Below, piece after piece: positions 7,347 through 55,826 of a stretch of DNA of 64,000 nt (its first letter is position 1; each line of letters opens with the position of its first letter). The DNA is from a virus. The stretch lies in IMG/VR virus record IMGVR_UViG_3300027659_000014, positions 42,181 through 106,180 of that record; one strand, 5' to 3'. A program made the position numbers and the translations under genes. The notes below the pieces were generated by a model. That model had not been told where the DNA came from, made no database searches, and saw only the letters and a program-made list of their open reading frames with translations.

Positions 7347-7938
7347 TTTTTAAATATTTATTAAAAATTTCAAAATTAAAGGCCGGACTAACATCAGTAA
7401 AATCACTATCAAAATTACTTTTAGTTACAATACCTTCAAATTTTTCTATACCGTTTATTTTTGTATTATGTTCCACACTTTTTAATGGGATATTAGTTTC
7501 TTTGGTTAACTTAACACACAATTTTGAGGTTAAAATAATTTGTTCCTCAGGATATGGTTGCCAAAAAAAATAATCTCTCCATGTTTTATTAAAAACCTTT
7601 TGTTTATAAATATCACCAATCCAATTAATGTGATAATTTTTTAATGGTTCTTTTTCTAACCAACCTAAATTTTCCAAACAAACAATTACAGAGTTTCTGT
7701 TTATAGATGATGTTGTGTTATAATTAGTATATTCATCATTGTCCAATAACTGAAGAACTTTACCATCTCTTGTTACAATATAGTTAGGAATTTTATCATA
7801 TTTACCATTATGTCTATATTTTAATGATTGTAAAAAATCATTTATGTTTCTAGACGTATTAGTGAGTATAATTTGTGTTTTGTTTTTATTTTTTTTCTCT
7901 GATCTAAAATTTCCGTATTTTATTATTTCATCAATCAT
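7339..7938 (-). CDS. N-acetylmuramoyl-L-alanine amidase (Amidase_2/PGRP) fold protein, Zn ligands apparently degenerate
   Basis: QIILTNT, NYIVTRDGKVLQLL, NRNSVIVCLEN, YPEEQI, TDVSPAF follow the Amidase_2 layout. Confidence 0.75.
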   Translation of the reverse strand: MIDEIIKYGNFRSEKKNKNKTQIILTNTSRNINDFLQSLKYRHNGKYDKIPNYIVTRDGKVLQLLDNDEYTNYNTTSSINRNSVIVCLENLGWLEKEPLKNYHINWIGDIYKQKVFNKTWRDYFFWQPYPEEQIILTSKLCVKLTKETNIPLKSVEHNTKINGIEKFEGIVTKSNFDSDFTDVSPAFNFEIFNKYLKND

Positions 7939-9028
7939 TTGTTTTAGTATATCTTAAAACTTTATTTTGTGTGGTTGTATTTACGGTGGTTAGTCCTGTA
8001 CTACCATATTCTATATTTGATAATTCAATAATTTCAGGTTCGACTTGGGGGGTGACTTGGGGGGTATAATGCGTGGTATGATGTGTTAAATAACTTTCAG
8101 GAATCTCAATCTCATCATGTATGGTATCATGTATGGTATCTTCTTTGTGAGGGACACCAGTGTCCCCCTCTAAATTTTCTGTGAATTTTAACAGAGGGAC
8201 ATCCGTGTCCCCCTGTGAATCTTCGTCTTTTCTTTTTCCTTTAAATGCTTGGTTTGTTGCAATAACTAACGTAATTGCTAATGGATCAAAAACAAAGATC
8301 AAAATTAAAATAAAAAGATTTGCGGTTCGTTTAATATCCCAATCAAGTAGTTCACTAACATACTTTAAAGCTCCCAACTCACTTCCCGAAATTTCTTTTG
8401 ATTCCATGTTTAAGATATTAATATCAAGTTGGGTGATACTATCATTCATACTATCAATTCTTTTTGCTATTGTGTCTCTCCTTACTTGTGCTTGTGATAG
8501 TTGAGATTCAAATAATTTTCTATTACCGTCGTTGGCTCTTGTAATTACCTGTCCAGTTCTTCTATCCACAGATTGTGTTGTTGTATTATTAGATACCCCG
8601 TCTCTTAACTTAGTAATGTCTCCGTCTAAAATGTTTTTTTCTTTTGTTAATTCGTCTTTAACTTCTTCAAACCTTTTCTTTTTTACCTCAATATTTTTGA
8701 CTTGTTTTTCGTTAATTTCAAGTTTTGCAATATTCCCTTGAAATCCTGTACTTAAAAGTCCGTATATTCCAAGTGAAGTTATTAAAGAAAGGGTCACAAG
8801 AGCAATGGACATATAAATTTTTAAAATTCCATATGTTTCTTTCCATTTGTCGTGAAGATATGTTGCAATTGCAATTTTAGATATCTCAAGAAATGATCCC
8901 ATAATAATAACGGGTAATGCCACACCAACAAATACGATTGATAAACCAACAACACTATAATATGCTGCGGTTCCTGACAAACCCAAAGCACAAAATAATA
9001 AAAACCAAGGTAAAAATTTTTCTTTCAT
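7931..9028 (-). CDS. Multi-TM membrane protein with a long coiled coil and a low-complexity tail
   Basis: Three N-terminal TMs, coiled coil, TM with FVFDPLAI. Confidence 0.8.
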   Translation of the reverse strand: MKEKFLPWFLLFCALGLSGTAAYYSVVGLSIVFVGVALPVIIMGSFLEISKIAIATYLHDKWKETYGILKIYMSIALVTLSLITSLGIYGLLSTGFQGNIAKLEINEKQVKNIEVKKKRFEEVKDELTKEKNILDGDITKLRDGVSNNTTTQSVDRRTGQVITRANDGNRKLFESQLSQAQVRRDTIAKRIDSMNDSITQLDINILNMESKEISGSELGALKYVSELLDWDIKRTANLFILILIFVFDPLAITLVIATNQAFKGKRKDEDSQGDTDVPLLKFTENLEGDTGVPHKEDTIHDTIHDEIEIPESYLTHHTTHYTPQVTPQVEPEIIELSNIEYGSTGLTTVNTTTQNKVLRYTKTND

Positions 9029-9041
9029 AATAATTCTAATA

Positions 9042-9072
9042 TATTTATAAATACTAATATAAGGTATTTATA
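9042..9072. promoter_or_regulatory. Divergent TATTTATA motifs between 9028(-) and 9078(+)
   Basis: Palindrome TATTTATAAATA at 9042-9053 and TATTTATA at 9065-9072. Confidence 0.5.
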
Positions 9073-9077
9073 TAATT

Positions 9078-9497
9078 ATGTCACTACTTAGAGAAACAAT
9101 ACGTAAAGTTTTAATCTTAGAAAAGAAGATTGCTGAGATCCAAGCAAAACTTACTGTTACCATGAATTTAAGATACCAACAGGTAAATGTACCTGGAATG
9201 AAGACCCACGCTGAAATACGAAAAAAAAGAGATTTTTCAAAAAGTGGTGATATAATTAGAGATTATGATATCTTAAATTCAGTAAAAAAAGTAAAGGATG
9301 ATATAGTACAATATATTGTCATTGGTGAGTTATATGATGGTGTTGAGTTTGTAATTAAAGATGAATCAAGCTTACTTAGTATTGCAATTAGAATAGAAGA
9401 AGTTAATCCTTACGAATTTAATCTTTTTATTAAAACCGTTATGAGGGATGCTAATTTTTATGTTGGTAGAAATCAACTAGTTATTACCGCAAAATAA
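9078..9497 (+). CDS. Hypothetical protein; N-terminal LRETIRKVLILE leader plus possible BECR/DUF4258-like RNase domain
   Basis: THAEIRKKR ... DILNSV ... FVIKD ... FIKTVMR pattern. Confidence 0.55.
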   Translation: MSLLRETIRKVLILEKKIAEIQAKLTVTMNLRYQQVNVPGMKTHAEIRKKRDFSKSGDIIRDYDILNSVKKVKDDIVQYIVIGELYDGVEFVIKDESSLLSIAIRIEEVNPYEFNLFIKTVMRDANFYVGRNQLVITAK

Positions 9498-9520
9498 ACC
9501 CCCACTGGTACCAATGGGGG
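9493..9520 (-). terminator. Intrinsic terminator between convergent units
   Basis: CCCCCATTGG-TA-CCAGTGGGGG followed by TTTATTTT on the minus strand. Confidence 0.8.
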
Positions 9521-9623
9521 AGTGTAATTTCATCTTACATCACGAGTAAGATTGAGGATTTTCACCTAGAGAACATCGTGTCTCATTCCGCCGAGTTGTA
9601 AGGGTAATCTCGGTTCAACCCTT
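9521..9623 (-). ncRNA. Candidate structured RNA of unknown family (pseudoknot, T-loop, loop-loop pairing)
   Basis: GC-rich island. H-type knot AAGGGU/ACCCUU + CCGAG/CUCGG; hairpins GAGA/UCUC, AGG-UGAAAAU-CCU and AUCUUAC/GUAAGAU; loops CACGA and UCGUG are complementary. Confidence 0.6.
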
Positions 9624-9630
9624 TTTGTAA

Positions 9631-10077
9631 TTAACGATCCTCTATTGTAAATCCTTGAGAATCAACCTCAGGTCCATTATCAATTAACATTTCAACTTTG
9701 ATTTCTCCATCAACAAATCTTGACACAGAACAGAATTCAATTTCAACATCCTCATTAAGATTCATTTTAAACTCGTTATACTGTTCCTCAGTTTCAAATG
9801 ACCCAACTTGACTTGCCGGTGATTGGTAAACTTTTAGACGATACGAACCAAATGGATTTTTAAGTTCAGAAACTTCCATAATAAGATTATCAAACTTATA
9901 ATTATCAGTACCATCTTCGGTTACAAATTTCCCATCATTATCCCTTTTTAATGTTTGAGAATAATGGTACCCACAATTACCACAATTTATATAATCTTCA
10001 CCTGTTTTGTAATAGAAATCGCTAAACGCTTCTTGTTTACAATTTGGACATTCAATATAATCAATTACACTTCCCAT
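9631..10077 (-). CDS. Zinc-ribbon protein
   Basis: CPNC...CGNC at the N-terminus; own Bacteroidota-type promoter. Confidence 0.8.
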   Translation of the reverse strand: MGSVIDYIECPNCKQEAFSDFYYKTGEDYINCGNCGYHYSQTLKRDNDGKFVTEDGTDNYKFDNLIMEVSELKNPFGSYRLKVYQSPASQVGSFETEEQYNEFKMNLNEDVEIEFCSVSRFVDGEIKVEMLIDNGPEVDSQGFTIEDR

Positions 10078-10092
10078 TTTTTTATTTTTTTA

Positions 10093-10124
10093 CAAAGATA
10101 TATAACTTATTTTAATTTGCCAAA
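10093..10124 (-). promoter_or_regulatory. Bacteroidota housekeeping-type promoter (-33/-7)
   Basis: TTTG-N20-TATCTTTG matches TTTG-N19-21-TAnnTTTG. Confidence 0.7.
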
Positions 10125-10130
10125 TTTTTA

Positions 10131-10931
10131 TTATAAATAGTCAAATAATTCTGAACTATCGTTTCTTAATCTTCTTAACGCCTTTTCTTTTATTTGTCTA
10201 ACTCTTTCTTTTGTTAATCCAAAATCACTCCCAATATCTTCCAAAGTTCTTGGTGTTCCTGTGATCCCAAAATAATCGCCAATAATTGATTTTTCACGAT
10301 CATCTAAATTATTTAATAAATTTAACATTTTTTCTTTTAAAATATCGTTTGTATTAAAAATGGCATCAGGAGCTTCAGCCTCTTGATTAACAATCATATC
10401 AATAAGGGTATCACCGTCTTCATTTATTTTCATGTCTAAATCAACAATAGATGGTAATCCAGTAAACTTATCATCCATTTTATTTCCAGATTGTTCAACT
10501 TCTTTTTTCGCCCTATGTAAATCTTGTACAACATTAACTGGTAATCTTATTGTTCTCGAATTATCATTTAATGATTGTAAAATTGATTGTTTAACCCACC
10601 ATACTGCGTATGAAATAAATCTAAGATCTTTATTCCAATCAAAATTTTTAATTGCTTTCAGTAAACCATGATTACCCTCAGCAATTAGATCTTGTAAATC
10701 TAATCCTTGGTTTTGATATTGTTTTGCAACTGTTATAACAAACCTTAAGTTACCCACAAGTAATTCTTCTTCAATTTGTTTTTTTTCAATTTCAGAAATA
10801 TTATCTGATTTCATTTTTATCGCCAAAGTTTTTTCCCTTTCTGGTGACATAACTTTAATTTTTCTAATATCTTTAAGATAGTAATATACTTCTTCTTGAT
10901 TAATTGGGATTCCTAAATTTTTACTTTTCAT
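10131..10931 (-). CDS. RNA polymerase sigma-70 factor, RpoD-like, Bacteroidota type without region 1.1
   Basis: NLRFVITVAKQYQNQGLDLQDLIAEGN, FISYAVWWVKQSI, RTIRLPVN, TLEDIGSDFGLTKERVRQIKEKALRRL. Confidence 0.95.
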   Translation of the reverse strand: MKSKNLGIPINQEEVYYYLKDIRKIKVMSPEREKTLAIKMKSDNISEIEKKQIEEELLVGNLRFVITVAKQYQNQGLDLQDLIAEGNHGLLKAIKNFDWNKDLRFISYAVWWVKQSILQSLNDNSRTIRLPVNVVQDLHRAKKEVEQSGNKMDDKFTGLPSIVDLDMKINEDGDTLIDMIVNQEAEAPDAIFNTNDILKEKMLNLLNNLDDREKSIIGDYFGITGTPRTLEDIGSDFGLTKERVRQIKEKALRRLRNDSSELFDYL

Positions 10932-15874: not shown

Positions 15875-16049
15875 TTTTACTTCTATTAAATGGTTCTTTC
15901 TTAAAGAAATATCCGGAGATATCAACATACCTTAATAGTTCAATATTACCTTCAACAGTTGTTGTTCCTTTTGATGATTTAAGCATTGCAATTTTGTATC
16001 CAAATCGGTTCGATAACCATTTAATAAATAATGCGGGGTATCTTTTCAT
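15867..16049 (-). CDS. Small hypothetical protein
   Basis: 60-aa ORF whose stop overlaps the sbcD-like start. Confidence 0.55.
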   Translation of the reverse strand: MKRYPALFIKWLSNRFGYKIAMLKSSKGTTTVEGNIELLRYVDISGYFFKKEPFNRSKND

Positions 16050-55601: not shown

Positions 55602-55826
55602 TTAACCGTTTAATAATTGTTTTATTCCAGATTTTGTTTCAACTTGGATTTTTTTATGTGTATTTAATGTATTGTCCACACGTTCAATCAGTCCATCCTT
55701 CATTCTTATTGTGTAACAATCTCCGGTATCTAAATCACACACCTCTTTAAATCCATTACCATTATCTTTTTCTGTTACTCTTGTGTTTTTACCAAGATAG
55801 TTATCTAAAATTAATTTTGTGTTCAT
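55602..55826 (-). CDS. Small hypothetical protein
   Basis: 74 aa, CDLDTGDC; TATTTATA at 55838-55845. Confidence 0.75.
   Translation of the reverse strand: MNTKLILDNYLGKNTRVTEKDNGNGFKEVCDLDTGDCYTIRMKDGLIERVDNTLNTHKKIQVETKSGIKQLLNG

What the first reader, a model, noticed from the sequence alone, without database searches (positions are those of the whole stretch)
9493..9623. Unannotated compact RNA with an H-type pseudoknot, T-loop and kissing loops
Seen on the minus strand: 5'-AAGGGU UGAA CCGAG AUU ACCCUU ACAA CUCGG (H-type pseudoknot, 6 + 5 bp), then CGGAAU, then hairpin GAGA-CACGAUGU-UCUC, then AGG-UGAAAAU-CCU (same geometry as a tRNA T-arm AGG-UUCGAAU-CCU), then AUCUUAC-UCGUGAU-GUAAGAU, then a strong terminator. 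The loops CACGA and UCGUG are exactly complementary, giving a second tertiary contact. It is a markedly GC-rich intergenic stretch in a window whose spacers are otherwise nearly pure A/T. Inference: a functional ncRNA (new motif, ribozyme, nuclease-resistant element or protein decoy). I could not match it to tRNA, hammerhead, HDV-like or riboswitch consensus by eye.
Basis: partly seen in the sequence, partly recalled or inferred. Interest (0 to 1): 0.78.

Follow-up and report, generated by a model that had tools for sequence, protein, structure and literature searches.

The report
Knotted phage small RNA facing RNase gene
The flagged stretch is a real, uncatalogued, pseudoknotted small RNA of large freshwater Bacteroidetes phages that repeatedly sits tail-to-tail with a gene for a probable RelE-like RNA-cutting enzyme, so it is most likely an RNA partner (antidote or decoy) of that enzyme, which would be a new kind of RNA-protein pairing.

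Summary
The RNA is real. About 135 nt on the minus strand (9625-9491) form an H-type pseudoknot, three hairpins and an intrinsic terminator. I found 57 distinct homologues in lake-phage contigs, and more in metagenomes. Every helix, including both pseudoknot stems, keeps its pairing through compensatory changes. The proposed CACGA/UCGUG kissing loop occurs only in the window's closest relatives and is not conserved. The T-loop likeness fits the sequence but is untested.

Rfam 15 and ARAGORN find nothing. The RNA is not a leader or 3'UTR element, because some copies have their own Bacteroidetes-type promoter and face all their neighbours.

About half the copies (27 of 55) abut, tail to tail, a ~140-aa gene (window 9078-9497). 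Its model weakly but consistently resembles RelE/ParE/HigB/RegB RNases. This pair recurs in at least three unrelated genomic contexts. That gene family nearly always faces some small RNA. The RNA, in contrast, often stands alone, even in a 93%-complete genome with no such gene.

Best reading, at about 0.45: a trans-acting RNA antagonist of the RNase, kept as an orphan "immunity" RNA in many phages. Function is inferred, not shown.

The scan had already noted this family on other DNA with a similar reading. I tested those claims here.

The parts
9491..9625 (-). Whole small RNA ('R1'): pseudoknot, three hairpins, linker and terminator
   Evidence: Covariance model R1 scores it at 159 bits. 57 distinct homologues were aligned.
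9618..9623 (-). P1 5' strand, AAGGGU
   Evidence: GGG/CCC is invariant. The flanking pair is A-U in 30 sequences and U-A in 19.
9600..9605 (-). P1 3' strand, ACCCUU
9609..9613 (-). P2 5' strand, CCGAG (it lies in the P1 loop, giving the pseudoknot)
   Evidence: Eight strand combinations, all 5/5 paired. RNAalifold also predicts this helix.
9591..9595 (-). P2 3' strand, CUCGG
9569..9584 (-). P3 hairpin, GAGAC-ACGAU-G(U)UCUC
   Evidence: Three to five pairs show changes on both sides, for example GAGA/UCUC versus GGUG/CACC.
9555..9567 (-). P4 hairpin, AGG-UGAAAAU-CCU (T-loop-like). A similar hairpin occurs in other small RNAs that face the same protein family.
   Evidence: The outer pair is AU, GU or GC. 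The motif is present in 31 of 32 R1 regions and 15 of 32 other partner regions, against 4.4% of control windows.
9532..9552 (-). P5 hairpin, AUCUUAC-loop-GUAAGAU
   Evidence: Six of seven pairs show changes on both sides. The loop sequence is variable.
9521..9531 (-). Conserved single-stranded linker, GAAAUUACACU
   Evidence: U-GAAA is invariant in the 39-sequence alignments and nearly so among all 57.
9491..9520 (-). Intrinsic terminator (stem 9520-9499, U-tract 9498-9491)
   Evidence: It is the only terminator-like site found in 8900-10250. The stem covaries.
9078..9497 (+). Convergent 139-aa gene, a probable RelE/ParE-like (BECR-fold) RNase. Its stop codon overlaps the RNA's U-tract.
   Evidence: AF2 models have pLDDT 77 and 81. 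VIA-align Z is 4-6 to RelE, ParE, HigB, YoeB and RegB. The Foldseek top 10 are all RelE/ParE-type, at E 0.13-0.3. The gene sits next to R1 in 27 of 55 distinct R1 loci.
9631..10077 (-). 148-aa Zn-ribbon (weakly Lar-like) ORF lying between sigma and the RNA. It is a variable insert, absent in most relatives.
10093..10124 (-). Bacteroidetes-type promoter, TTTG-N20-TATCTTTG, that would drive the Zn-ribbon ORF together with the RNA
   Evidence: Read directly from the sequence. The same promoter type lies directly upstream of R1 in 11 of 39 relatives.
10131..10931 (-). Phage sigma-70-family gene. In most relatives the RNA starts about 12 nt after its stop codon.

Best explanation
R1 is a stand-alone, trans-acting structured small RNA of large freshwater Bacteroidetes phages. 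Depending on the phage, it is transcribed from its own TTTG/TAnnTTTG promoter or as the tail of the upstream message, and it ends at a strong terminator. Its folded core is an H-type pseudoknot plus three hairpins.

Most likely it is the RNA partner of the ~140-aa RelE/ParE-like RNase encoded tail-to-tail with it. It would bind that enzyme and hold it inactive or redirect it, acting as an RNA antidote or decoy. Phages that have lost the RNase gene keep the RNA as an orphan 'immunity' RNA against the same enzyme brought in by related phages.

Shown here: the RNA family, its structure, its independence from flanking genes, and the conserved RNA-RNase gene pair. Inferred: RNase activity, binding, neutralisation and the immunity role.
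For: (1) The RNA is real and under selection for structure. There are 57 distinct sequences, all five core helices and the terminator carry compensatory changes, and every P2 pseudoknot position covaries.

(2) It is a stand-alone gene. 11 of 39 copies have their own TTTG-N19-TATATTTG promoter about 12 nt upstream. In L145 and L141 the RNA gene is the only feature on its strand. It follows at least three different upstream genes.

(3) The RNA and the RNase gene travel as a unit. 27 of 55 distinct R1 copies abut the convergent gene. This includes all 6 divergent-clade copies, which lie in contexts without sigma or p365. The orientation relative to neighbours flips, but the tail-to-tail pair is kept.

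(4) There is a dependency asymmetry of the kind seen with toxins and antidotes. Among 56 distinct sigma-p365 intervals, R1 stands alone in 20, R1 plus the gene occurs in 13-14, another small RNA plus the gene in 6, and the gene without any small RNA in 0-1. About 85% of 72 distinct family proteins face R1 or a motif-bearing small RNA.

(5) No protein antidote candidate is present. In the window only 49 nt separate the gene from a divergent ORF.

(6) The partner protein looks like an RNase toxin. Two models, searched with VIA-align (first model) and Foldseek (both), put RelE, ParE, HigB, YoeB, YafQ, BrnT and T4 RegB at the top. One member hits DUF4258 weakly.

(7) Different partner RNA classes share a P4-like hairpin: 31 of 32 and 15 of 32, against 4.4% of controls.
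Against: - The fold assignment is weak: Foldseek E > 0.1, Z <= 6.1, and no significant sequence match in Pfam, PADLOC or PDB.
- Nothing here shows binding, cleavage or toxicity.
- A lytic phage's RNase need not be neutralised. T4 RegB is not (my own knowledge).
- Orphan R1 copies are clearly under selection. A whole clade of about 15 distinct sequences has compensatory changes and no RNase gene. A 93%-complete 272-kb genome has R1 but no family member. So R1 must do something without a cis-encoded partner.
- Closely related proteins switch between R1 and quite different small RNAs at least 5 times on the tree. That is awkward for a tight, specific RNA-protein lock.
- The invariably convergent, abutting arrangement could instead reflect antisense or termination coupling.
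Confidence: 0.45

Rival explanations
1. R1 has its own function unrelated to the RNase, such as sponging or mimicking a host RNA-binding factor during takeover. The small RNase gene is a mobile 'moron' that tends to land beside small-RNA terminators in a recombination hot spot.
For: About half of R1 copies lack the gene, and these orphans keep their structure through compensatory changes. A 93%-complete genome has R1 but no RNase homologue. The sigma-p365 interval is a hot spot with variable inserts. The protein switches RNA partner repeatedly.
Against: The R1-gene pair recurs outside the hot spot in at least two other contexts, with the same abutting tail-to-tail geometry. The gene almost never occurs without a small RNA. 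A random landing site would not give that asymmetry.
Confidence: 0.25
2. R1 acts as a type I-like cis-antisense or transcriptional-interference control. R1 and the RNase mRNA are transcribed convergently and share the terminator region, so RNA duplex formation or polymerase collision limits RNase expression.
For: The convergent arrangement is strictly conserved, with the stop codon inside the RNA's U-tract. On the RNase strand the shared hairpin is not followed by a U-run, and only a minus-strand terminator is called. Read-through into R1 is therefore plausible.
Against: An elaborate, sequence-invariant pseudoknot is not needed for antisense action. R1 lies wholly outside the coding region. 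Orphan copies are maintained. The partner RNAs of other classes carry repeated loop motifs, which suggests binding in trans.
Confidence: 0.1
3. R1 is a substrate or cofactor of the RNase rather than its inhibitor. The enzyme would process R1 into an active form, or R1 would target or activate the enzyme.
For: The gene linkage is the same as for the main explanation. Other partner RNAs display a repeated loop motif, ACGAUUNAGAUAC, that could be a recognition or cleavage site.
Against: R1 of the window type lacks that motif. Orphan R1 copies persist without the enzyme. Nothing here distinguishes a substrate from an inhibitor.
Confidence: 0.1
4. R1 is a cis-regulatory element: a riboswitch-like leader of the downstream ~400-aa gene, or a 3'UTR stabiliser or terminator module of the sigma operon.
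For: In about 20 relatives R1 plus its terminator lies 39-65 nt upstream of the co-oriented ~400-aa gene and directly after sigma. The pattern of an invariant core with variable stems is riboswitch-like.
Against: In L145 and L141 R1 has its own promoter and no co-oriented downstream gene. A convergent gene separates it from the ~400-aa gene in half the loci. It follows three different upstream genes. No conserved antiterminator alternative was found: the GGGUUG/CAACUC alternative shows no covariation. No riboswitch model matches.
Confidence: 0.05

Closest known systems
Type III toxin-antitoxin systems (ToxIN, CptIN, TenpIN; reviews PMC5086642, PMC3401426)
   Same: An RNase gene is paired with a non-coding, pseudoknot-forming RNA that is the only conserved neighbour. 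The toxin is never without its RNA. The setting is phage and defence.
   Different: - The protein has a RelE/ParE-like fold, not ToxN/AbiQ-like, and there is no PADLOC hit.
- The RNA is a single ~135-nt multi-helix molecule, not a tandem array of short repeats.
- The genes are convergent, not RNA-upstream on the same strand.
- It is carried by lytic-type jumbo phages, and the RNA often occurs alone.
Convergent type I toxin-antitoxin pairs of Bacillus (txpA/RatA, bsrG/SR4; from my own knowledge)
   Same: Tail-to-tail genes whose 3' ends meet or overlap. The RNA partner has its own promoter and terminator.
   Different: The toxin here is a 139-aa soluble RNase-like protein, not a small membrane peptide. 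The visible overlap is only the U-tract and terminator. The RNA's conserved pseudoknot lies outside any overlap.
Phage T4 RegB endoribonuclease (PDB 2HX6)
   Same: A phage-encoded small RNase with a RelE-like fold. It appears among the structural matches (Z 4.6; Foldseek rank 21).
   Different: RegB has no known RNA partner. Similarity here is at fold level only and is weak.
Orphan immunity genes of colicin, CDI and other polymorphic toxin systems (concept; from my own knowledge)
   Same: The toxin always comes with immunity, and immunity is often kept alone. This is the pattern seen for the RNase gene and R1.
   Different: Immunity there is a protein. Here it would be an RNA, and the role is inferred only.

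Membership tests
H-type RNA pseudoknot | Two helices in which the loop of the first pairs with sequence 3' of it | tested here: met
   The P2 5' strand lies inside the P1 loop. P1's flanking pair is AU in 30 sequences and UA in 19. Eight P2 variants are all 5/5 paired.
Any Rfam 15 family (riboswitches, ribozymes, tRNA-like, sRNAs) | Match to a covariance model at gathering score | tested here: not met
   No hit in the whole window. In 9400-9720 the best score is 19.5 bits against cut-offs of 39-55.
tRNA / T-arm | Cloverleaf recognised by a tRNA finder | tested here: not met
   ARAGORN finds no gene in the window and there is no RF00005 hit.
T-loop motif | A 5-nt U-turn-like loop with a U1-A5 reverse-Hoogsteen pair, closed by a G-C pair and with an intercalated base | not testable with these tools
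   The sequence is compatible: U1 and A5 are kept in 56 of 57 copies and the G-C closing pair is invariant or nearly so. L141 has GCGGAAG instead. The three-dimensional fold is not assessable.
   48% of cells pair, and 3 of 5 pairs depart only by unpaired cells.
Intrinsic (Rho-independent) terminator | G+C-rich hairpin followed by a U-tract | tested here: met
   A 9-bp stem with 6 GC pairs, followed by TTTATTTT. The stem covaries.
Type III toxin-antitoxin | Antitoxin is a tandem array of short direct repeats | tested here: not met
   No tandem repeat in 9491-9625. There is a single R1 copy in the 106-kb record.
Type III toxin-antitoxin | Toxin of the ToxN/AbiQ, CptN or TenpN families | tested here: not met
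   No PADLOC hit for 12 members. Structural matches are to RelE/ParE-type proteins.
Type III toxin-antitoxin | RNA gene upstream of the toxin on the same strand, separated by a terminator | tested here: not met
   The genes are convergent in all 27 R1-gene loci.
Type III toxin-antitoxin | RNA binds and inhibits the toxin protein | not testable with these tools
   No RNA-protein docking or assay is available here.
Type I toxin-antitoxin (convergent class) | Small hydrophobic toxin peptide, with extended antisense overlap | tested here: not met
   The partner is a 139-aa alpha/beta protein. The annotated overlap is about 7 nt of U-tract. The mRNA 3' end is unknown.
RelE/ParE (BECR-fold) RNase superfamily (partner protein) | Shared fold and catalytic site | tested here: inconclusive
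   Z is 4-6 to RelE, ParE, HigB, YoeB, BrnT and RegB. The Foldseek top 10 are all RelE/ParE-type but at E 0.13-0.3. One of 12 members hits DUF4258 at E 0.0011. PDB profile searches show nothing. Invariant E15, H44, R48, T120 and Q133 are unassigned.

The most novel reading that the evidence does not exclude
R1 and the convergent gene are the founding pair of a new class of RNA-protein toxin-immunity modules carried by phages. In this class a RelE/BECR-fold RNase is neutralised by a single-copy, complex pseudoknotted RNA rather than by a protein or a repeat array. Interchangeable RNA 'immunity' classes (R1 and the ACGAUUNAGAUAC-loop RNAs), together with widespread orphan immunity RNAs, would be used in phage-versus-phage conflict.
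Probability: 0.3. Interest if true: 0.85.

Novelty: new variant of a known kind. Interest (0 to 1): 0.68.

Why it matters
All known RNA antidotes of protein toxins (type III systems) are repeat arrays that pair with ToxN-like enzymes. RelE/ParE-type toxins are known only with protein antitoxins. A single-copy pseudoknotted RNA that pairs with a RelE-like RNase, in phages rather than hosts, would widen both categories. It would also give a compact natural RNA inhibitor of an RNase fold that is very common in bacterial conflict systems.

Independently of function, R1 is a well-supported new structured RNA family. It has more than 100 occurrences in lake metagenomes, a pseudoknot proven by covariation and no Rfam entry. 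It comes from a poorly known group of ~270-320-kb freshwater Bacteroidetes phages.

Tried and rejected
- **Rfam** at gathering and at permissive thresholds gave nothing. Eight related loci searched at gathering score gave only tRNAs.
- **ARAGORN** found nothing.
- **blastn** of the locus and of the RNA against 50,697 phage records gave no match.
- **Kissing loop:** rejected as a conserved feature.
- **Alternative helix GGGUUG/CAACUC:** 95% paired but with zero compensatory change and a score equal to shuffles.
- **RNAalifold's alternative closing helix** (GGUU with the 3' GAAAC tail) excludes P1. It has no two-sided changes and fails in the divergent clade, so I kept P1.
- **MAFFT alignment A5** misplaces the divergent clade's P2 3' strand by 3 nt. 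Its 5 'unpaired' P2 rows are alignment artefacts; the register was checked.
- **Profile searches** of the partner protein against PDB sequences, Pfam, PHROGs and PADLOC gave nothing significant.
- **Homologue search:** 168 proteins, all unnamed.
- **ESM Atlas:** only viral hypothetical clusters, with a distant DUF4258 cluster.
- **Prokaryotic genome scan:** one real R1, on a 5.4-kb contig binned in a lake Bacteroidetes MAG. The other 18 pattern hits are chance.
- **Near-matches to the ACGAUUNAGAUAC motif** in the window: the two I read (15996-16007 and 55726-55737) lie in stretches that look like small ORFs rather than RNA genes, and I judged them chance.
- **Fremin et al. 2023 catalogue** of phage structured RNAs (PMC10690425) may contain this motif, but no supplement is held, so I could not check.

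Full report
**What is there.** On the minus strand, 9625-9491, lies a ~135-nt non-coding stretch. It sits between the stop of a 148-aa Zn-ribbon ORF (9631-10077, minus) and the stop of a convergent 139-aa ORF (9078-9497, plus). It is richer in G+C (0.41-0.46) than the neighbouring spacers at 0.15-0.30. It ends in the only terminator-like site of the region: stem 9520-9499 followed by TTTATTTT. The window is part of a 106-kb IMG/VR virus record estimated to be 36% complete. Upstream on the same strand are a sigma-70-family gene and an SbcC-like gene. Promoters in the locus are of the Bacteroidetes type, TTTG-N19/20-TAnnTTTG. The only copy found in 185,579 species genomes is on a small contig binned with a lake Bacteroidetes MAG. 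The host phylum is therefore probably Bacteroidota. This is an inference.

**Is the structure real?** Searching with the two upstream proteins, a DNA pattern and a covariance model gave 57 distinct homologues in viral contigs.

- On the 57-sequence alignment, 95.9% of cells pair, and 14 of 25 pairs show changes on both sides. The covariation score is 0.361, against 0.170 for shuffles (0 of 500 as high) and 0.05-0.12 for slid partners.
- P3, P4, P5 and the terminator covary strongly.
- P1 has an invariant GGG/CCC core and a flanking pair that is A-U in 30 sequences and U-A in 19.
- P2 is the pseudoknot stem. It is invariant in the main clade, but a divergent clade and metagenomic copies show CCGGG/CUCGG, UUGGU/ACCGA, UCGGU/AUCGA, UUGGU/ACCAA, UUGGU/AUCAA, CCAAG/CUUGG and CCGAG/CUUGG. 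Each is fully paired, so every P2 position has changed with pairing kept.

The H-type pseudoknot is thus confirmed.

The CACGA/UCGUG kissing loop is exact only in the window's near relatives; 48% of cells pair overall. The P4 loop (UGAAAAU, closed by G-C) is compatible with a T-loop, but this cannot be tested here. Three U-GAA(A) elements are the most invariant unpaired parts: in L1, in the P4 loop and after P5.

**What it is not.**
- There is no Rfam 15 family, even at E <= 10, and no tRNA or tmRNA.
- It contains no tandem repeats and no ORF of 30 aa or more.
- It is not a leader or 3'UTR element. 11 of 39 copies have their own promoter about 12 nt upstream. In L145 and L141 it is the only feature on its strand, with promoter and terminator. 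It follows three different upstream genes.
- Two competing helices lack covariation support: GGGUUG/CAACUC and a GGUU/AAAC closing helix.

**The clue from context.** The ancestral-looking order is SbcC, a 174-aa ORF, sigma, R1, a ~400-aa ORF, then amidase. In 27 of 55 distinct R1 loci, a 135-159-aa gene homologous to window 9078-9497 is inserted tail-to-tail, with its stop codon at the RNA's U-tract. All six divergent-clade R1 copies also have it. These lie in contexts without sigma or the ~400-aa gene. There the protein gene runs with its neighbours and the RNA gene is the one reversed. So the unit that is conserved is the pair.

Conversely, of 72 distinct proteins of this family, 30 face R1 and 31 face other promoter-bearing small RNAs carrying 1-3 copies of the loop motif ACGAUUNAGAUAC. 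Of the remaining 11, some face still other short promoter-and-terminator RNAs, and several face a coding gene or an unassigned sequence instead. Among 56 distinct sigma-to-~400-aa intervals, the counts are:

| Content of the interval | Number |
|---|---|
| R1 alone | 20 |
| R1 plus the gene | 13-14 |
| Other small RNA plus the gene | 6 |
| Neither | 14 |
| The gene without any small RNA | 0-1 |

A P4-like hairpin (stem, NGAAA-N1-3-AU, stem) is shared by 31 of 32 R1 regions and 15 of 32 other partner regions, against 4.4% of control windows. The divergent R1 terminator loop (UCAGAAUAC) resembles the other classes' loop motif.

**The partner protein.** It has no significant sequence match to any named family. 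Two AlphaFold models (pLDDT 77 and 81) give weak but consistent fold matches.
- VIA-align Z is 4-6.1, and most of the top 30 rows are RelE, ParE, HigB, YoeB, YafQ, BrnT, CdiA-CT or T4 RegB.
- The ten best Foldseek rows for the better model are all RelE/ParE-type toxins, at E 0.13-0.3.
- One member touches DUF4258. This family has been placed in the RelE/ParE or colicin-like BECR RNases (preprint 10.64898/2026.08.28.747851).

I regard a BECR/RelE-like RNase fold as probable, not established. No upstream protein antitoxin is present.

**Most likely mechanism.** The gene that looks like a toxin is almost never without a small RNA, whereas the RNA is often alone. That asymmetry, the co-transfer of the pair between contexts, and the lack of a protein antidote together point to R1 as the RNA partner of the RNase. 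Most simply, it would be a direct-binding antagonist.

The orphan copies are not decaying. A clade of about 15 distinct orphan sequences keeps every helix through compensatory changes. A 93%-complete 272-kb genome carries R1 but no family member. The model therefore needs R1 to be useful alone. I propose immunity against the same RNase delivered by related co-infecting phages, by analogy with orphan immunity genes. That step is speculative.

The main weaknesses are these:
- The fold call is weak.
- There is no binding evidence.
- The protein switches between R1 and other RNAs at least 5 times on its tree.
- The strict convergent geometry could instead mean antisense or termination coupling.

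Rival readings are listed with odds in the Rival explanations section: an independent function with a hitch-hiking gene, antisense control, a substrate or cofactor role, and a cis-regulator.

**Relation to known systems.** Functionally the closest are type III toxin-antitoxin systems, but three defining features were tested and not met: repeat-array RNA, a ToxN-type toxin and same-strand order. It works perhaps like one but is not a member. The geometry recalls the convergent type I pairs of Bacillus, but the toxin type differs.

Earlier notes of this scan on other genomes had reached a similar reading (RNA antidote of a RelE-like RNase, about half of copies orphan). I used them as leads and re-derived each point here.

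**Verdict.** This is a genuine new structured RNA family with a covariation-proven pseudoknot. Its function is probably tied to a phage RelE-like RNase, with about 0.65 that they are functionally linked and about 0.45 for the antidote/decoy mechanism. Expression data could not be obtained.

Noticed in passing
L151:2905-3110, L203:2908-3110, L169:2905-3110 (minus strand of each locus) and similar: This is a second class of small RNAs facing homologues of the 139-aa gene. They have their own TAnnTTTG promoter, 2-3 hairpins whose loops repeat ACGAUU(C/U/A)AGAUAC, and often a middle hairpin like R1's P4. They have no Rfam match at gathering score.
   Followed up: partly
L148:2866-3070, L152, L167, L194/L199 (minus strand): A third partner RNA class occupies the sigma site. 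It shares R1's promoter and leader (TATCTTTGTAAGACAAAC) but has a different body: GGGUUAAAAGUCACC..., one ACGAUUCAGAUAC loop, and a long-range GGGUUAAGUAG/CUGCUUAAUC pairing. It has no obvious U-tract before the protein's stop codon.
   Followed up: no
L096 and L266, downstream of the RelE-like gene: Two loci carry a short (~70-nt) promoter-plus-terminator RNA. In L266 GUCAGAAUAC occurs in both hairpin loops. This resembles the terminator loop of the divergent R1 clade (UCAGAAUAC).
   Followed up: no
L169:200-4120: One RelE-like gene and small-RNA pair sits inside a phage cluster of at least 14 tRNA genes. BECR-fold toxins of the colicin type cut tRNAs, so the location may be meaningful.
   Followed up: no
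window 9029-10130, and the sigma-to-~400-aa interval in L049-L128: The interval after the sigma gene is a hot spot, 100 to 3,400 nt long in relatives. It holds variable ORFs: a Zn-ribbon/Lar-like ORF, and others of 81, 134, 184 and 305 aa. One locus carries both R1 and an ACGAUUNAGAUAC motif.
   Followed up: partly
window 7931-9028 (minus): The conserved ~365-450-aa gene downstream of R1 has a well-conserved N-terminal ~270 aa and a variable C-terminus. It has no Pfam or PHROG match and is followed by an Amidase_2 (endolysin-like) gene.
   Followed up: no
window 10107-10146: An imperfect 21-nt tandem (1.9 copies) overlaps the sigma stop and the -33 region of the promoter for the Zn-ribbon ORF. 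It is probably trivial.
   Followed up: no
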